DNA of 64,000 nucleotides from Pocillopora damicornis (lineage: Eukaryota). The stretch covers positions 806,001-870,000 of the forward strand of contig NW_020845867.1 of NCBI RefSeq assembly GCF_003704095.1, given 5' to 3'. Positions 18,001-42,000 of this stretch are shown here, one piece after another. The position numbers were made by a program. The stretch's first letter is position 1. Each line of letters opens with the position of its first letter.

Positions 18001-21000
18001 AAAAATTAAAAAAAACAAAGCTGGTCAAGAAGTGAACCAAGCGAAAAATGTTGCTCCCACCTTCTTTTATTCGTCAGAGAAAAAATGCAAGAATAATATA
18101 ATAATAAAATTTAAATTATAAGTCAACGTTAGTGTTTTTGGCAACTCTATTAACAGTTACTTTACATTTTGATCATCACTAGCAGTTAAAGCAAAAACGG
18201 TCGCATTCACTCGATTATGATTATCGTGATGACGTTTGGTAAGGTGGTCGAAACGTCAGTCTACCACCGACAACAGTCCCTGTCAAGACTACTCTCTCCT
18301 AGACGATCAGACCACACGAATCATTTCTAATTTGGTTATTATTAACGCAGGTCAGAGGAGAAAATGCTATAACTGTAGTTTTCAAAACTCAAAATCTTTG
18401 TTTGTATCTTTGTACACCAGTATGAAAGGTATACTATATCTAGTGTCGATACTTGGAAATTTAAGTACCATAATGATTTGATTTAGCACCCTTCTTACAA
18501 TAAGCGGCCCCCCTCTATACTGTTTTTATAAATAAGTGCACTTATTCGAATAAGCGCCCCTATCCTAATGAACGCCCCTACTCAGTTTCAGTAATAGCAC
18601 TTTTAGGGTACATTTACATTGAGATCAACCGAGGTTCATCTTTCCTTAATTGCTCACTTAAAGCCTCACGACAAGAGCAGTGGTCTTACAGTTTCTTGAA
18701 ATGAAAGATTCTGTCTCAAAATTTTGCGACGAGGGACAACAAGTCCGTTTTTCAGTCTTTCTGATCCTTTTCAAATAAATATCAAAGCTTTGTTTCCGTC
18801 ACATTCTGCTGTTTCTCAAAAAAGGAATAAGTGTCTTGTCCCTAATAGGCACCTTGATTCCAATAAGCACCCTCCCTGAGATACCGATTAAAAGCAATTA
18901 AACGCCCCGGGTACAAAATCAAATAATTACGGTACGCATTTTGTTGCGCTAACTAATCTGGACTATGTTCCAAATCGGGCTTGGAAATATGCAGTCTATG
19001 TACCTATATTCAATGTAAAAACGATCACAAGTGTGCCAGAAATCGATGGAGACTTGCAAGGAGCAGCTTAAGGTTTGGCCAATAAAACCCTCCTAGAAAG
19101 GACGTCTAAAATTGGAATATAAATATTGCCTTTCTGGCCGCCACTTCCCAATGGTCTACATGACTGCGTCTGCTTTTGACGCGCTCAGTTCAATAATACA
19201 GCCTTGAGGTTTCTCGAAAGTTTGAAAAATTGCAAAAAAGGTACACTATTTTGATGCTAGTATTATTATAAATTATGATTATAACTATGAACTTGCCGTG
19301 CAGATAATCATTTTGGACATTTTGGAAAAAGGCCTATTATCTATGAGCATTTTTGAGCACTGAAGATTGGGATCCAGCTCTTGCTCTGCTCATTTGTCGT
19401 CATCTATTTCCGAGTTGTTGACAGTCTTTGACTGCATTGTGGTCATCGGTGCCTCATCTATCTTCCTACAAGCTTTTTGACCAGAACTATTGTTTGTAGT
19501 TGTCGTGTAGAGCAGTAAGGACATTCCTAGCTCCAGACACCGCATTAATGTCATGAAAATGTACCAAGGCCACGGCGAAATGAATTGCGCATGGGATGAA
19601 GCGCCGCTGATGCTGACCGCAGCGTAAAGATGCATGACGGCGATACTAAAGCCGCCTACACTGGCTGTTACACAACGTTTGAAAATAGAAAATGTCTGCG
19701 TTCCTCTGTCTAGAGTTTTCGACGAACCTTCTCGCACAGTGTGAAGCTTTTTCCAAATAAGGAAGGAAATGTATGAGTAAAAGAAGGCCAGGCTGATATA
19801 TAGAAGTATGTTTATTACCTGGCAAGCCAGTATCAAGCCGCTGTAAGCTGGAATAAACGCGACAATCAACTCAGATGTGAACACGAAGATGTAGTAAGGA
19901 AGAGTAACCAAAGTTATGTTTCTTGTCGTATACCAGGTTTGAAATCTGTTTTTCATCACTAAAGCATTTCGCAACACTAAGAAAATCAGCATGAACGCTG
20001 TAATCAAACAAGGCTGTCCAATTCCCCAGAGTAGACTCGTCACTTTCGCTGAAACATGCTTCTTTGAATGGTAGGCGTCAATACACAGAAAGAGACATCT
20101 TGATGAACCGAAGATGAAGATTTGACTCAGCACAACGAACGACACTTTCTTTTGTCGAGCCCCCCTATCCATTTTAAATAATTTCACCAGCGCCACAAAC
20201 GCTAGTAAACTGATGACACCGAATAGAGCTCCGAGTCCATATTGATGAAATTCCCACGCGGCTCCCCAAGTCTCCACAGCAATATCCCATTCGGGCTGAG
20301 GTTCGGCCGTCGGTTCAGCTGTCGGCTCGGCCTCGGCCCCGGCCCCGGCCCCGGCCCATCCGCGGTATTCTCCTTCAGGAGTAGCTTCGGTCGTGGCCGT
20401 CCCTTTTACAGTTTCTGGTTTTGAAGTCATCTTGTTGCGAGTGGCGCTGAGTGGTAAATAAATTTTCTAACCTCTATCTGTCTATTGAATACGTTTGCGC
20501 AGTGGAAGCTGTTACAGTGGTGGGGAAGTATAGATTGGTTTGCGTCCAGGAAACGAACTCTAGAGTTCGGTCAGTCAGATGTTCAAGTCTAAAACTGTTT
20601 GAAACACCCTCAAAACTCTTGCCTTTGTTGTGAATACCGACCAAATAAGACAAATACAGCTTTCTCTCGAAGCTGTGAAAAACATGGTTCCCCTTCAGAT
20701 GCAGCTAATGATGTAAATAGCTTAATATGCGACAAAAAAGCGTTAACAACCAGCTGTCATAGCGATTGTTTTAGCTACACAAAAACAAGACTGTAAATTG
20801 CTCTCCTCCATAAAAACTTAAACAAAGCAACTATTGTTTAGTAAGAACAGACTCGATGAATTGAGAGCCTCACAAGAGGCTTACCCAGTTTAAAATCCAA
20901 TTGGAAAATGGACTCTTGTTTATTTCAAAACCTAATTACGTTTGCTCAATTATTTATGAATCAAAAGGTTAGNNNNNNNNNNNNNNNNNNNNNNNNNNNN

Positions 21001-39000: not shown

Positions 39001-42000
39001 GCATACCTTCTTTGGAAAAATTTCAGAGTGGAAAATTCTCAAGGAAGTGCGGAAAAAAGTCGACAACATTTTGCGCGGACCGTTTCGAAAAGTAGTCCGC
39101 GCGGCAGACAAACTCGATCCATTATCAAAACTTGCGTCGCAGCCGTTCTTGGAGGCGTTATACTTTGCGCGCTTCAAATTTATTCGATGAGTGGAGTTTA
39201 CGGGGTTTTCTCGGACGCCATTTATGTTGAGGCCTGGCCTTGGTTGATCTTCAATTTTTCCATGAGAGTTTTAGAGTTATTTCTCTCTTTCGTGTTATTC
39301 AGTGCCGCTTCCAAACAAGGAACACGGCGTCGACAGTGCCAATCATTTCCCGTAAGCTCGGCGGGTTCATTCCAAGGGCGTGCACGACAAAGAAATTGTG
39401 TGATTTCCCTCTCACCTAACGCGATTGGCAGTGCAGGTTTAAGTACGAAAGGCACTGCTATATTGTAAAATATTTTCAAAATGAGAAGCAGCTCACTGGA
39501 AGATTATTTCTTAGGGTCTCAATGGGGTTAACTGTCAGACTTAAAACGGCCTAAAAATTTAGCTGTTAGGCGTAAAAATGGAAACACTGTAACTGTTGGT
39601 CGTAAAAAGATTAGGTAAAAACATTTTTCTATTTATAATGAAAGTTGAATTCTGAAAGTGTCAAAATCTTAGCCTGTCATGTGTCTTGTCTTGTGGCTAA
39701 TGTTGTTATGACAGTTATACAATTTATTTTGGTATCGAAGACATTTGAAAATGAACATCTGAAAATTGATTGCCAACCTTTTAAAATGATCGAAATTCAT
39801 TTTGAAATTCCTGTTAATCGTAACAGAAAGATATCAAGAGTGAACACCATCACCCCATTGAGACCCTCAAGAAAATTAAGCATATTAACACAAATGAAAA
39901 CTGAGAAGCACATATTGTTTTCCATCCTGTCCAAATCACTCTTTACGCGAGCTGAATACTAACACCTGCCTCCTTATACTTAATTAATTTTCGGGAATAC
40001 TTTAACAGGGACATATACGAGATTTCATCAGGGAAAAAGATTTATTTAAACTCGGTGTATATTCGGTATCATGTGGTTACATTGGGAATCTTTTGGGTCT
40101 TTTTTTGTATCACTGTTTTCATTCTTAATATCGAAATCTACTTTTTGAAGTGTTTTTTTTCCTTATTTGTTTGGTTTAAGTATATTATTCTAGGCTTTAA
40201 CGAACTTTGATCGATCGTGACAATAAGCACAAAAATTTCCCTCTGCCAGTAATTGCTGGATTCAGATTGAAAATCGGAATCTTTTGCTATATTTTTAGGG
40301 CTACAACATATATTTCACAATACGTCACGACGGTAAAACTAACTCACATATTACTAGCCGTTATACAGTAAATATCAGTCATACATTTATTGCCAGTATT
40401 AAAATAAATGTATACTCGACTCTGTAATTCTACCACTTATTTCCCATTTCCACTACTCATGCTAGATGGAAGGTGATTAGATTAAAGCAGTGTGATAACT
40501 GTTATGTTTACATTTAGCGTTAAATGGTACTTGTTATTGAAAGACATCACTTATCCGGTCCCACTAAGATAATGATAAGTTGCGTCACGTTCACTGCACG
40601 GAACAATTATCAGAACACGTTTGACCAAAATAATTAGAGCAGATTTTCAAAATAACCTTTCTTATGGAAATTTTAATGAGGCGTTTTCGAAAATTGCGAC
40701 CGTGACAAAAAATTCGTCAATAAGAAACATTATCCTCAGAGCACTGTTTTAAGGTGCATGGTCCAATTGAACGCGAACGAAAATTACTAACCAAGAGCAA
40801 CTCATTTCATGAACGGAACGAACGTCTAGGATCGTTCATAGATTGCGCTTTCTGATTGGTCAGCGAATTGTATACTGACAGGCACACGCCACACCATGTT
40901 GCAAGAACACGCGAAAAGTTTGAAAATCACTCGCCTTCGGTTCGGTCTCTTACTTTAAGTCCTTTGCAGTCAAATCTGTGAATCATTCCTAAAGCAGCTT
41001 ACCAGCCAATCAGGTTCGAGTATTTTTCATTAGCAGAACTAGGGCTGATAGAGGCTGTCAATGGGGTGATTACTTTTACCGCTAACGGTTAAAATTTTTG
41101 CCATTTTACGGCTAACGGTTAATATCATTCCATTGTTGTTGTTTAAGGTTCTATTAGTTTTTTTACGACTAATGGTTAGAATTTGTCAATTTTTACGCCT
41201 ACTAATTTAATTTTTTTGCCGTTTAACAGCTATCGGTTACCCCAATTGAGACCCTCGTAATATTCCCCTTGAAAATAATTAGTTTCTGGAGTTTTTAAAT
41301 CAAAAGTCCCATAAATTTGTGTTTACACTGAGTCAGACGAGATGAATTTGTTTTAGAAAGTACCTGACGTAAATGTTTTTTTTGTTTTGTTGTTTTTCTG
41401 TCTAGTTTGTCTCGTTTTTTCGTAATAAGAAATTTGTCTGTTCTCTAATAATATGTAGATGATTCAATCAACTCTGGTCGCGCCCTTTCTCGAGACGCTT
41501 ACACGACAGAAAATATTTTCATTAAACGGCAATCCGCGGTTTCTCCAAAACTTATATGCGCTTGAGCAGCACGTGTTCCCTATAAACCAACATGGCGGCT
41601 GGAGGAGCAGAAGAGCATTTTGCTAAGAAACTAGCGAATAACGACAAGAAAATCAGAGATAAAGCCCTGAATAAACTTAGGGCTTGGATTAGGAGCCGAC
41701 CAAAGGATGGCCCTGGTAAGTTACTGACAACTTTCTTTAGCAGACGTAAACAGATGTACAAAAATGTTGCGCCACTTTTCAAGCATGGATGTGTTTTCAT
41801 GGATCGCTCAATGCTAAAGAGGACATTGTGGTAATGTCTCAGTATGCAGTATGTGTAGTGCGATGAAAGAACTTGGATTACCGTATTATTGAATCCAATG
41901 CATTATGTTATTTATCTAAGTACATTGATAGGAATAATTTATTTTTCCTTGAAGGGTTTGGTGAGGTAGATTTGCTTAAAATATGGAAGGGACTATTTTA

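What the first reader, a model, noticed from the sequence alone, without database searches (positions are those of the whole stretch)
19390..39468. Cluster of three intronless PRRT3/4-like 7TM receptor paralogs
Seen: three intact single-exon ORFs (346, ~339 and 363 aa) sharing EPxPEW, W..(H/Y)QYGLGA.F, R(C/S)L(F/Y)LC(I/M)DAY, G.PC.ITA, RF..WY..(R/K)NI and WPW..R..E. Two are in tandem on minus and one is divergent ~14.7 kb away, all among intron-rich housekeeping genes. No signal peptide is visible, and the long Pro-rich ectodomain of vertebrate PRRT3/4 is absent. Inference: a locally expanded family of orphan non-rhodopsin 7TM proteins, possibly a coral receptor repertoire (chemosensory, endolysosomal or symbiosome sensing) of retroposed origin. 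More copies may be hidden in the gaps at 20973 and 29086-32520.
[Added by the scan's program, not by the reader: the finding's places include an assembly gap (unread letters, written N; its length is only estimated) at 20973 to 21380, 29086 to 29185, 30382 to 30836, 31006 to 31105, 32421 to 32520. Whether the letters on both sides are continuous or in frame is not known: test that first.]
Basis: partly seen in the sequence, partly recalled or inferred. Interest (0 to 1): 0.65.

Follow-up and report, generated by a model that had tools for sequence, protein, structure and literature searches.

The report
Three clustered PRRT-like seven-helix genes
Three old sister genes, probably in a cnidarian genome, encode short seven-helix membrane proteins of the little-studied PRRT3/4 receptor-like family; this is a real but ordinary, already catalogued gene family.

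Summary
Three intact single-exon ORFs (346, 339 and 363 aa) sit at the stated coordinates, share all six quoted motifs, and none crosses an N gap. By chance about 1e-5 ORFs of this length are expected in the window. For the two proteins queried, the ESM Atlas places them nearest PRRT3/4 clusters carrying PF25987 (0.98, 0.95-0.96, 0.92). Hydropathy and a 15-17 versus 2-4 K+R loop bias support seven helices, N-terminus out and C-terminus in. Synonymous sites are saturated (pS 0.84-0.85) while pN is 0.36-0.42. The copies are therefore old, selected paralogs, not a recent burst. I found no retroposition hallmarks and no fourth copy or relic. The cluster lies in a 28-kb block that is not CpG-depleted, between strongly depleted gene bodies. 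In corals that pattern goes with regulated rather than constitutive expression. The short tails lack the arrestin codes reported for human PRRT3/4.

The parts
19390..20430 (-). Gene A: single coding exon, 346 aa (P0001), PRRT3/4-like 7TM protein
   Evidence: ORF; translation. In-frame stop 39 nt upstream of the ATG. 45% identical to B and 37% to C. CpG o/e 0.99. No AATAAA or ATTAAA until +1319 nt downstream.
19501..20304 (-). Gene A 7TM core, residues 43-310 (EPQPEW to end of helix 7)
   Evidence: Motif positions; hydrophobic segments. Automated peak calling merges helices 4 and 5 here, giving 6 peaks. One search lists separate windows 175-193 and 199-217.
20328..20357 (.). CGGCCC x5 microsatellite inside gene A's N-tail coding region (Ala-Gly run), next to a PTAE x3 peptide repeat
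   Evidence: Tandem Repeats Finder; translation.
22674..23693 (-). Gene B: single coding exon, 339 aa (P0002), PRRT3/4-like 7TM protein; C-terminus ...ELQTV
   Evidence: ORF; translation. The Atlas holds the sequence letter for letter, and the nearest clusters carry PF25987. In-frame stop 48 nt upstream. CpG o/e 1.18.
22779..23594 (-). Gene B 7TM core, residues 34-305. Helices approx. 54-75, 89-108, 125-150, 164-184, 192-217, 244-265, 284-305
   Evidence: 7 hydropathy peaks. K+R counts are 16 in loops 1, 3 and 5 against 4 in loops 2, 4 and 6. Invariant polar residues are R102, N146, E178, C194/Q195 and R292/E295.
38377..39468 (+). Gene C: single coding exon, 363 aa (P0003), PRRT3/4-like 7TM protein, divergent from B
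   Evidence: ORF; translation. The Atlas holds it letter for letter, with PF25987 clusters at 0.98/0.95/0.92. In-frame stop 18 nt upstream, and the only acceptor-like site (TTTTTCAG|G) is at -19. CpG o/e 1.07.
38464..39306 (+). Gene C 7TM core, residues 30-310
   Evidence: Motif positions. 7 hydropathy peaks at window 19.
20973..21380 (.). Assembly gap in the A-B spacer, upstream of gene A. The A-B adjacency and gene A's promoter region depend on it
   Evidence: N run. The edge match at 21401-21508 scores E 0.6 and 6.5 bits and is taken as chance.
14001..42000 (.). Domain not depleted in CpG (o/e 0.8-1.15, except 0.60 in the gap-rich 30-32 kb bin) that contains all three genes
   Evidence: 2-kb profile. 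Flanks are 0.13-0.18 at 10-14 kb and 0.07-0.26 over 42-52 and 54-58 kb (0.55 at 52-54 kb), with the complementary TpG/CpA excess.

Best explanation
These are three anciently duplicated genes, each with a single coding exon, for short members of the PRRT3/4 family (Pfam PF25987). That family is a eukaryote-only group of seven-helix membrane proteins recently reported to share the GPCR fold.

Shown here:
- The ORFs are intact and homologous.
- Each has a short acidic, Pro/Glu-rich N-tail with no signal peptide, then seven hydrophobic helices whose loop charges place the N-terminus outside and the C-terminus in the cytosol.
- Amino-acid change is far below the saturated synonymous change, so all three have been kept by selection for a long time.
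- A and B look like sisters. The loci share no DNA similarity.
- The cluster lies in a CpG-rich domain, a signature of historically absent germline methylation.

Inferred:
- The copies arose by DNA-level tandem or segmental duplication of a gene that was already single-exon.
- They are expressed in a regulated, cell-type- or condition-specific way rather than constitutively.
- They act as receptor-like proteins. Conserved motifs at the outer helix ends (EPxPEW before helix 1, DAY after helix 2, GxPC on helix 3, CQ on helix 5, WPW on helix 7) would form a binding mouth with buried R/E residues.
- The highly conserved helix 3 / loop 2 segment (LRN...RFxxWYxxRNI) and the basic loop 3 would contact a cytosolic effector.
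- By analogy with human PRRT3/4, classical constitutive G-protein coupling is unlikely. The human-type arrestin-code tail is missing, so the effector is open.
For: - ORFs and motifs.
- Chance expectation of about 1e-5 such ORFs.
- Atlas: P0002 and P0003 (2 of 3 proteins queried) are nearest three PF25987 clusters, at 0.98, 0.95-0.96 and 0.92 with 201-231 of 256 shared features. The third cluster is arthropod-dominated and 512 aa, so it is not their own cluster.
- Topology: hydrophobic peaks number 6/7/7 at window 19, against 0.2-6.8% of shuffles reaching 7. K+R is 15/16/17 in loops 1, 3 and 5 against 3/4/2 in loops 2, 4 and 6. The N-tails carry 12/12/7 acidic against 3/4/6 basic residues.
- Selection and age: pS 0.84-0.85 and pN 0.36-0.42 over 325-331 codons. 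The relative-rate test of A against B gives p=0.245.
- Sister order: of 320 ungapped columns, A=B only 57, B=C only 42, A=C only 32.
- No DNA similarity between loci or flanks: 0 of 27 self-blastn pairs link them.
- CpG o/e is 0.99/1.18/1.07 against 0.66 for the window. In Acropora millepora the classes split at 0.46, and high-o/e genes are enriched for signalling, adhesion and defence, and are more plastic and less abundant in expression (PMC4378018 passages).
- Human PRRT3/4 have a GPCR-like fold by TM-align to rhodopsin, recruit arrestin, show no constitutive G-protein recruitment, and the family is confined to eukaryotes (PMC13581589 passages and section 5).
- Tandem duplication is the main route of receptor-family growth in corals (PMC10236652 passages).
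Against: - The local Pfam library gave no family hit for 0 of 3 proteins; the only match was a sub-threshold DUF6703 at E 0.081 for P0001. I could not tell whether PF25987 is in that copy.
- Family membership therefore rests on language-model similarity, and the top Atlas cluster may be the proteins' own.
- No solved structure matches by sequence or profile at E <= 10.
- P0001 gives only 6 automated hydropathy peaks.
- Helical periodicity of conservation is not significant overall (p=0.066).
- Invariant residues are not significantly enriched on the outer side (48/140 against 35/132, p=0.19), so the 'binding mouth' idea is weakly founded.
- Arrestin codes in the C-tails number 0/1/0, no more than in shuffles, and there are no di-leucine motifs.
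- I have no expression data. Gene A has no canonical poly-A hexamer within 1.3 kb, and its upstream region is cut by a gap.
- CpG o/e is only an indirect proxy, and its threshold comes from one coral species.
Confidence: 0.72

Rival explanations
1. The proteins belong to a neighbouring seven-helix family of endolysosomal or membrane-trafficking proteins (GPR137, plant TOM1/THH1, TPRA1) rather than to PRRT3/4, and act on organelle membranes, for example in nutrient or Rag/mTORC1-type signalling.
For: Atlas hits at 0.89-0.91 to clusters carrying GPR137_N, THH1_TOM1-3_dom or Tmemb_40. GPR137B is discussed with lysosomes and mTORC1 in reviews; I saw only the titles and listing.
Against: These scores are lower than the three PF25987 clusters (0.92-0.98), with fewer shared features (164-177 against 201-231). 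The tool rates hits near 0.9 as leads only. The local Pfam library gave no PF06454 or PF10160 hit at E <= 1; whether it holds those two models was not checked. There is no di-leucine or YxxPhi sorting motif in the tails.
Confidence: 0.07
2. The single-exon structure reflects retroposition: an mRNA of an intron-containing parent was reverse-transcribed, inserted here and then duplicated.
For: All three coding regions are uninterrupted amid intron-split neighbours. With synonymous sites saturated, any retroposition hallmarks would have decayed.
Against: - No A-run directly follows any ORF; the only runs of >=8 A are at +945 and +1005 behind B.
- Self-blastn gave no repeat pair flanking any of the three ORFs.
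- Two copies are head-to-tail neighbours, which fits tandem DNA duplication.
- Gene C has an acceptor-like site 19 nt before its ATG, hinting at a 5'-UTR intron.
- Human PRRT3 has only 4 exons, with codon 394 in the last. That its 7TM region lies after that codon is my recollection, not a tool result.
Confidence: 0.1
3. They are a small repertoire of classical G-protein-coupled chemosensory receptors.
For: Seven helices with the N-terminus out, clustered single-exon genes, high CpG o/e as for regulated signalling genes, and diverged outer loop 3 in gene A (23-43% against 63% between B and C).
Against: - Only three copies in 64 kb, and they are old with even rates. There is no sign of birth-and-death turnover or pseudogene relics.
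- DRY, NPxxY and CWxP are absent in 3 of 3.
- Human family members did not recruit G proteins in three assays (PMC13581589 passages).
Confidence: 0.08
4. The ORFs are non-functional relics or annotation artefacts.
For: No expression evidence is available here. Gene A lacks a nearby canonical poly-A signal, and its 5' flank holds a gap.
Against: Three frames of 346-363 codons stay open although synonymous sites are saturated. pN is less than half of pS. 88 of 320 ungapped columns are invariant, including whole motifs. The chance expectation is about 1e-5.
Confidence: 0.02
5. They are seven-helix transporters built from an internal 3+1+3 repeat, like the PQ-loop or SWEET type.
For: Seven helices with buried invariant R/E/N/Q residues.
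Against: A profile comparison of helices 1-3 against helices 5-7 gave probability 1.7% and E 0.03 over 32 columns, so no internal repeat is detectable. No Pfam transporter family hit.
Confidence: 0.02

Closest known systems
Human PRRT3 and PRRT4 (Pfam PF25987; the 'superdark' GPCR-like PRRT family of PMC13581589)
   Same: Nearest Atlas clusters all carry PF25987. Seven helices, eukaryote-only (no prokaryotic relative confirmed among 106 pattern matches), no rhodopsin-class motifs, and proline-rich N-terminal sequence, here very short.
   Different: The window's proteins are 339-363 aa and are essentially the bare 7TM core. They lack the expanded disordered regions noted for the human proteins (Extended Data Fig. 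5 legend). No upstream Pro-rich exon candidate was found among 81 same-strand ORF pieces. C-tails of 34-53 aa carry 0/1/0 arrestin codes, against the 'six' reported for PRRT3/4.
GPR137 / GPR137B, plant TOM1-THH1 and TPRA1 (PF27607, PF06454, PF10160)
   Same: Similar length (296-398 aa), seven helices, and weak language-model resemblance at 0.89-0.91.
   Different: Lower scores than the PRRT clusters, no hit to these models in the local Pfam search, and no lysosomal sorting motifs.
Rhodopsin-class (class A) GPCRs, including the tandemly amplified coral GPCR families
   Same: N-out/C-in seven-helix topology, single coding exon, and clustered paralogs. Tandem duplication is the usual mode in corals, where rhodopsin-like GPCRs account for 34 of 192 amplified orthogroups (PMC10236652 passages).
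   Different: No sequence or profile match to any solved GPCR at E <= 10, no 7tm_1 Pfam hit, and DRY/NPxxY/CWxP absent. There are only three, old copies.
TM184 / OST-alpha family (the other 'superdark' GPCR-like family)
   Same: Described together with PRRT as GPCR-fold proteins that recruit arrestin but not G proteins (PMC13581589).
   Different: TM184C traces to archaea and bacteria while PRRT does not. No Atlas hit to that family appeared among the rows shown.

Membership tests
PRRT3/4 family (Pfam PF25987 PRRT3) | Match to the PF25987 profile above its gathering score | tested here: inconclusive
   The local Pfam-A copy (24736 models) gave no hit for 0 of 3 proteins; whether PF25987 is in that copy is unknown. 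The Atlas, annotated with Pfam 38.1, puts P0002 and P0003 at 0.98, 0.95-0.96 and 0.92 to clusters in which 98-100% of members carry PF25987.
PRRT3/4 family (Pfam PF25987 PRRT3) | Seven transmembrane helices, N-terminus exoplasmic | tested here: met
   Hydropathy peaks are 6/7/7; P0001's helices 4 and 5 merge in peak calling but are separate windows. K+R is 15-17 on the inside against 2-4 on the outside, and the N-tails are acidic.
PRRT3/4 family (Pfam PF25987 PRRT3) | GPCR-like three-dimensional fold (TM-align to rhodopsin, as in PMC13581589) | not tested
The Atlas has no model of either protein.
PRRT3/4 family (Pfam PF25987 PRRT3) | Long proline-rich or disordered regions flanking the core (vertebrate members) | tested here: not met
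   N-tails of 47-60 aa with 5-7 Pro, and C-tails of 34-53 aa. No Pro-rich upstream ORF piece among 81. The nearest cnidarian clusters are 306-338 aa, so this is probably a vertebrate feature rather than a family-defining one.
PRRT3/4 family (Pfam PF25987 PRRT3) | Arrestin-code motifs in the C-tail, and arrestin recruitment | tested here: not met
   Using the paper's own regular expressions, there are 0/1/0 codes, no more than in shuffles. Recruitment itself is not testable with these tools.
Rhodopsin-class GPCR | 7tm_1 profile match and the DRY, CWxP and NPxxY motifs | tested here: not met
   No Pfam hit. The motifs are absent in 3 of 3; only an ERF in loop 2 of P0003.
GPR137 / TOM1-THH1 / TPRA1 | Profile match to PF27607, PF06454 or PF10160 | tested here: inconclusive
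   No hit at E <= 1 in the local library. PF27607 is probably absent from that copy, and whether it holds PF06454 and PF10160 was not checked. Atlas similarity is only 0.89-0.91.
Processed retrogene | Poly-A tail remnant, flanking target-site duplications, dispersed location away from the parent | tested here: not met
   No A-run adjacent to the ORF ends, no repeats flanking the ORFs, and two copies in tandem. Saturated divergence means the absence of hallmarks is weak evidence.

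The most novel reading that the evidence does not exclude
These bare-core proteins show the ancestral form of the PRRT family: a GPCR-fold receptor without a disordered ectodomain or arrestin-code tail. 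On this reading cnidarians keep a small, regulated, lineage-specific set of them. The set would signal through the invariant helix 3 / loop 2 surface to an effector that is neither a G protein nor arrestin, perhaps in environmental or symbiont sensing. Gene B's ...ELQTV end would tether it to a PDZ scaffold; the PDZ-ligand rule is recalled, not tested.
Probability: 0.12. Interest if true: 0.55.

Novelty: new member of a known kind. Interest (0 to 1): 0.22.

Why it matters
PRRT3/4 were described as GPCR-fold proteins only in 2026, and their ligands and effectors are unknown. Compact invertebrate members of about 340 aa, almost all core, would be convenient for structure determination and for asking which features are ancestral. 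Here the helix 3 / loop 2 segment is the most conserved, and the arrestin codes are not conserved. For coral biology the locus is one more small, old receptor-like cluster. It is not evidence of an unusual expansion. The sequences are already in a public protein atlas under an automatic PRRT4-like name, so the finding is mainly a correct annotation.

Tried and rejected
- Local Pfam on the three proteins: no family.
- PDB by sequence and by profile: 0 hits at E <= 10.
- Prokaryotic genome scan with the alignment: 106 pattern matches, 0 confirmed.
- A fourth copy or relic. tblastn gave 5 extra weak hits at E 0.32-9.9. A family HMM against all six-frame pieces gave a best extra hit at 17838-17993(-), E 0.09 and 9 bits, which does not reproduce the motifs. 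I rejected these as chance.
- dN/dS proper: undefined, because pS exceeds the Jukes-Cantor limit.
- Internal-repeat test: negative.
- Helical periodicity of conservation: p=0.066 overall.
- Outer-side enrichment of invariant residues: p=0.19.
- Arrestin codes, di-leucine and YxxPhi motifs: none beyond chance.
- Upstream Pro-rich exon: 0 of 81 pieces.
- Shared promoter words: no 9-mer common to all three 5' flanks, and no 11-mer shared by any pair.
- Acceptor-like sites within 150 nt either side of the ATG: only one, before gene C.
- Rfam (gathering score on the whole window; E <= 0.1 on 18-41 kb) and tRNA scan: 0 hits.
- Pfam on 10 ORF pieces between and beside the genes: 0 hits.
- Literature. 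No paper among the 25 with the full protein names concerns cnidarians. No paper holds both PRRT3 and GPR137. One search was too broadly worded and uninformative.

Full report
**Observation.** Gene A is 19390-20430 (-), 346 aa. Gene B is 22674-23693 (-), 339 aa. Gene C is 38377-39468 (+), 363 aa. The N runs are at 7520-7619, 20973-21380, 29086-29185, 30382-30836, 31006-31105 and 32421-32520. None lies inside an ORF, so reading frame across a gap is not an issue for the proteins. The gaps do affect linkage. The 408-N gap sits in the 2243-nt A-B spacer, 542 nt upstream of A's ATG.

All six motifs are present in 3 of 3 proteins; the last is WPW-x7-R-x2-E. Identities are 45% (A-B), 40% (B-C) and 37% (A-C). 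Every protein finds all three loci by tblastn at E <= 1e-75. With 5.8% stop codons over the six frames, about 1e-5 open frames of 340 codons are expected in the window. These three are among the four longest of 117 stop-free frames >=75 aa.

**Gene models.** In-frame stops lie 39, 48 and 18 nt upstream of the ATGs. Only gene C has an acceptor-like site near its start, TTTTTCAG|G at -19, which would be a 5'-UTR intron at most. Among 81 same-strand stop-free pieces >=35 aa in the readable 5' flanks, none is proline-rich, so I see no hidden ectodomain exon. The ESM Atlas holds P0002 and P0003 letter for letter, so existing gene predictions use the same single-exon reading. 'Single coding exon' is therefore well supported. 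'Intronless' in the strict sense needs cDNA.

**Family.**
- The local Pfam-A copy gave nothing beyond a sub-threshold DUF6703 match, E 0.081, for P0001.
- The PDB gave no sequence or profile match at E <= 10.
- The Atlas placed P0002 and P0003 nearest three clusters in which 98-100% of members carry PF25987 (PRRT3). Two are cnidarian-dominated, at 338 aa (0.98) and 306 aa (0.95-0.96). One is arthropod-dominated, at 512 aa (0.92), with 201-231 of 256 features shared.
- GPR137, TOM1/THH1 and TPRA1 clusters follow at 0.89-0.91. The tool treats that range as leads only.
- P0001 was not queried because the cap is two calls.
- I could not determine whether PF25987 is in the local Pfam copy, so the profile test of membership is inconclusive.

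**Architecture.**
- Kyte-Doolittle analysis shows seven hydrophobic segments. In P0002 they are about 54-75, 89-108, 125-150, 164-184, 192-217, 244-265 and 284-305.
- Automated peak calling gives 6/7/7 peaks at window 19 and 6/7/8 at window 15. P0001 loses one because helices 4 and 5 are joined by a 7-residue turn. P0003 gains a weak one in its tail. Composition-matched shuffles reach 7 peaks in 0.2%, 2% and 6.8% of trials.
- Loops 1, 3 and 5 hold 15/16/17 Lys+Arg, against 3/4/2 in loops 2, 4 and 6.
- The N-tails are acidic (12/12/7 D+E against 3/4/6 K+R) and have no hydrophobic leader.
- By the positive-inside rule this gives an N-out, C-in topology without a cleavable signal peptide.
- The N-tails (47-60 aa) still contain 5-7 prolines. 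In gene A the tail also has a PTAE x3 repeat and an Ala-Gly run encoded by a CGGCCC x5 microsatellite. It looks like a miniature of the proline-rich ectodomain.
- DRY, NPxxY and CWxP are absent in 3 of 3.
- There is no internal repeat between helices 1-3 and 5-7 (probability 1.7%).
- The best conserved stretch is helix 3 with cytosolic loop 2 (57-73% identity).
- Invariant polar residues inside helices include R102, N146, E178, C194/Q195 and R292/E295, in P0002 numbering.
- Two tests that could have strengthened a structural reading were not significant: helical periodicity of conservation (p=0.066) and outer-side enrichment of invariant residues (48/140 against 35/132, p=0.19).

**Age and selection.**
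- Nei-Gojobori counts give pS 0.84-0.85, above the Jukes-Cantor limit, so dS and dN/dS are undefined. pN is 0.36-0.42 over 325-331 codons.
- The copies are therefore old. They stayed open and conserved long after synonymous sites randomised, which argues strongly for function in all three.
- Of 320 ungapped columns, 88 are invariant, 57 unite A and B, 42 unite B and C, and 32 unite A and C. A-B sisterhood is mildly favoured, which fits their tandem position. A and B do not differ in rate (p=0.245).
- Self-blastn at E <= 1e-5 found 27 repeat pairs in the window, none linking the loci or their flanks.
- A family HMM against every six-frame piece found only the three genes. The next best hit is 17838-17993(-), E 0.09, which does not reproduce the motifs.
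- The piece abutting the 20973-21380 gap scores E 0.6.
- So there is no sign of birth-and-death turnover. 'Locally expanded' overstates a three-member old cluster.

**Origin.**
- No A-run follows the ORFs closely, and self-blastn gave no repeat pair flanking any ORF.
- The three 5' flanks share no 9-mer common to all three and no 11-mer between any pair.
- Given the age of the copies, missing hallmarks prove little.
- Tandem arrangement, together with the report that tandem duplication drives receptor-family growth in corals (PMC10236652, passages), makes DNA-level duplication the simpler account.
- Human PRRT3 has four exons, with codon 394 in the last (PMC7417871, Fig. 2 legend). I recall, without a tool result, that its helices lie downstream of that codon. 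If so, a single-exon core is ancestral.

**Chromatin proxy for expression.**
- CpG observed/expected is 0.99, 1.18 and 1.07 for genes A, B and C, against 0.66 for the window.
- A 2-kb profile shows a block from about 14 to 42 kb at 0.8-1.15, with one gap-rich bin at 0.60.
- That block sits between gene bodies at 0.13-0.18 (10-14 kb, SRP receptor alpha) and 0.07-0.26 over 42-52 and 54-58 kb (0.55 at 52-54 kb; Nop52 and the next gene). TpG/CpA shows the mirror excess.
- In Acropora millepora the two gene classes have means of 0.36 and 0.74 and split at 0.46. High-o/e genes are enriched for signalling, adhesion and defence, and their expression is more plastic and lower on average (PMC4378018, passages).
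- A cnidarian-wide survey reports the same relation to expression categories, but with less discrete bimodality (PMC8857923, abstract).
- I infer regulated, not constitutive, expression. This is indirect, and the source species is unknown to me.

**Mechanism.** A 2026 paper identifies human PRRT3 and PRRT4 as GPCR-fold proteins by TM-align against rhodopsin. It reports arrestin recruitment similar to TM184C and no recruitment of active-state G proteins in three assays. [quoted passage not shown]

My scan of prokaryotic genomes agrees with the eukaryote-only claim (0 of 106 pattern matches confirmed). Applying the paper's own regular expressions, the C-tails here have 0/1/0 arrestin codes, no more than shuffles, and no di-leucine motif. 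The paper reports six codes for PRRT3/4.

My best account is a receptor-like seven-helix protein with two conserved surfaces. The conserved outer helix ends would bind a ligand or partner. The helix 3 / loop 2 surface and the basic loop 3 would bind a cytosolic effector that is probably not a classical G protein and not obviously arrestin. Topology and conservation are shown. The fold, the pocket and the effector are inferred.

**What stayed unchecked.**
Copy number in other cnidarians against bilaterians, orthologue-based dN/dS, the dating of the duplications and a deep alignment were therefore impossible.
- Paper supplements were closed. The 7TM catalogues of PMC13581589 and coral cell-atlas tables may already list these genes.
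- I do not take the window for human: GC is 0.24-0.42 per 2-kb bin, CpG depletion is mosaic and confined to gene bodies, and the nearest protein clusters are cnidarian.

**Verdict.** These are new, uncharacterised members of a known family and are already present in a public atlas under an automatic PRRT4-like name. Interest is low to moderate.

Noticed in passing
window 1-64000 (2-kb bins); blocks 14001-42000 and 60001-64000 against 1-2000, 10001-14000 and 42001-58000: There is a sharp mosaic of CpG observed/expected: 0.8-1.24 in two blocks, against 0.07-0.26 in the bodies of neighbouring genes (one 52-54 kb bin is 0.55). TpG/CpA shows the mirror excess. This is a textbook gene-body-methylation footprint. 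The SRP receptor alpha gene changes from 0.13-0.18 at its 5' half to 0.81-0.85 at its 3' half.
   Followed up: partly
730-835, 6739-6947, 11262-11468, 13948-14150, 44199-44330, 54388-54597; and 7129-7334, 46861-47010, 50576-50782, 52052-52264: Two families of roughly 205-215-nt dispersed repeats share the terminal inverted repeats TTAACCCTTT...AAAGGGTTAA. They look like MITEs with piggyBac-type ends (that assignment is recalled). All copies lie in the CpG-depleted gene bodies, none between 14.2 and 39.5 kb.
   Followed up: partly
39513-39608 and 41160-41255: A 96-nt inverted repeat pair (75% identity) brackets the 1.6 kb between gene C's stop, 45 nt away, and the Nop52 start. One arm probably lies in gene C's 3' UTR.
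   Followed up: no
55498-56751 (-): A 418-codon stop-free frame encodes a low-complexity, probably disordered protein segment. It has extreme CpG depletion (o/e 0.10), no Pfam hit and no PDB hit. It is presumably a large exon of an unidentified gene.
   Followed up: partly
3867-4523 and 6350-6658 (+); 10098-17106 (+); 41586-41831 and 47184-47957 (+); 61665-62027 (+): Neighbouring genes, identified piece by piece. Rap_GAP scores E 4e-25. SRP receptor alpha has SRP-alpha_N at E 1.8e-25 plus SRP54 pieces at 15497-15802, 16264-16617 and 16807-17106. Nop52/RRP1-like has its first exon here plus a Lys/Glu-rich ORF that may be its tail. A CDI-domain CDK inhibitor scores Pfam E 2.4e-17 and matches p27/p21 chains in the PDB at E 1e-7.
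   Followed up: partly
22674-22691 (-), the last residues of gene B: Gene B ends in ...ELQTV, which fits the class I PDZ-ligand pattern (x-S/T-x-hydrophobic; pattern recalled, not tested). A ends in ...DDDK and C in ...TAIL.
   Followed up: no
gene A residues about 272-288 (window about 19567-19617, -): Outer loop 3 is well conserved between B and C (63% in 30-column windows) but diverged in A (23-43%). A is not faster overall (relative-rate p=0.245). This may be a change of specificity.
   Followed up: partly
29052-29085 and 29458-29491: A 34-nt stretch directly at the left edge of the 29086-29185 gap recurs 97% identical about 400 nt further on. The gap may therefore sit in a local repeat.
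   Followed up: no
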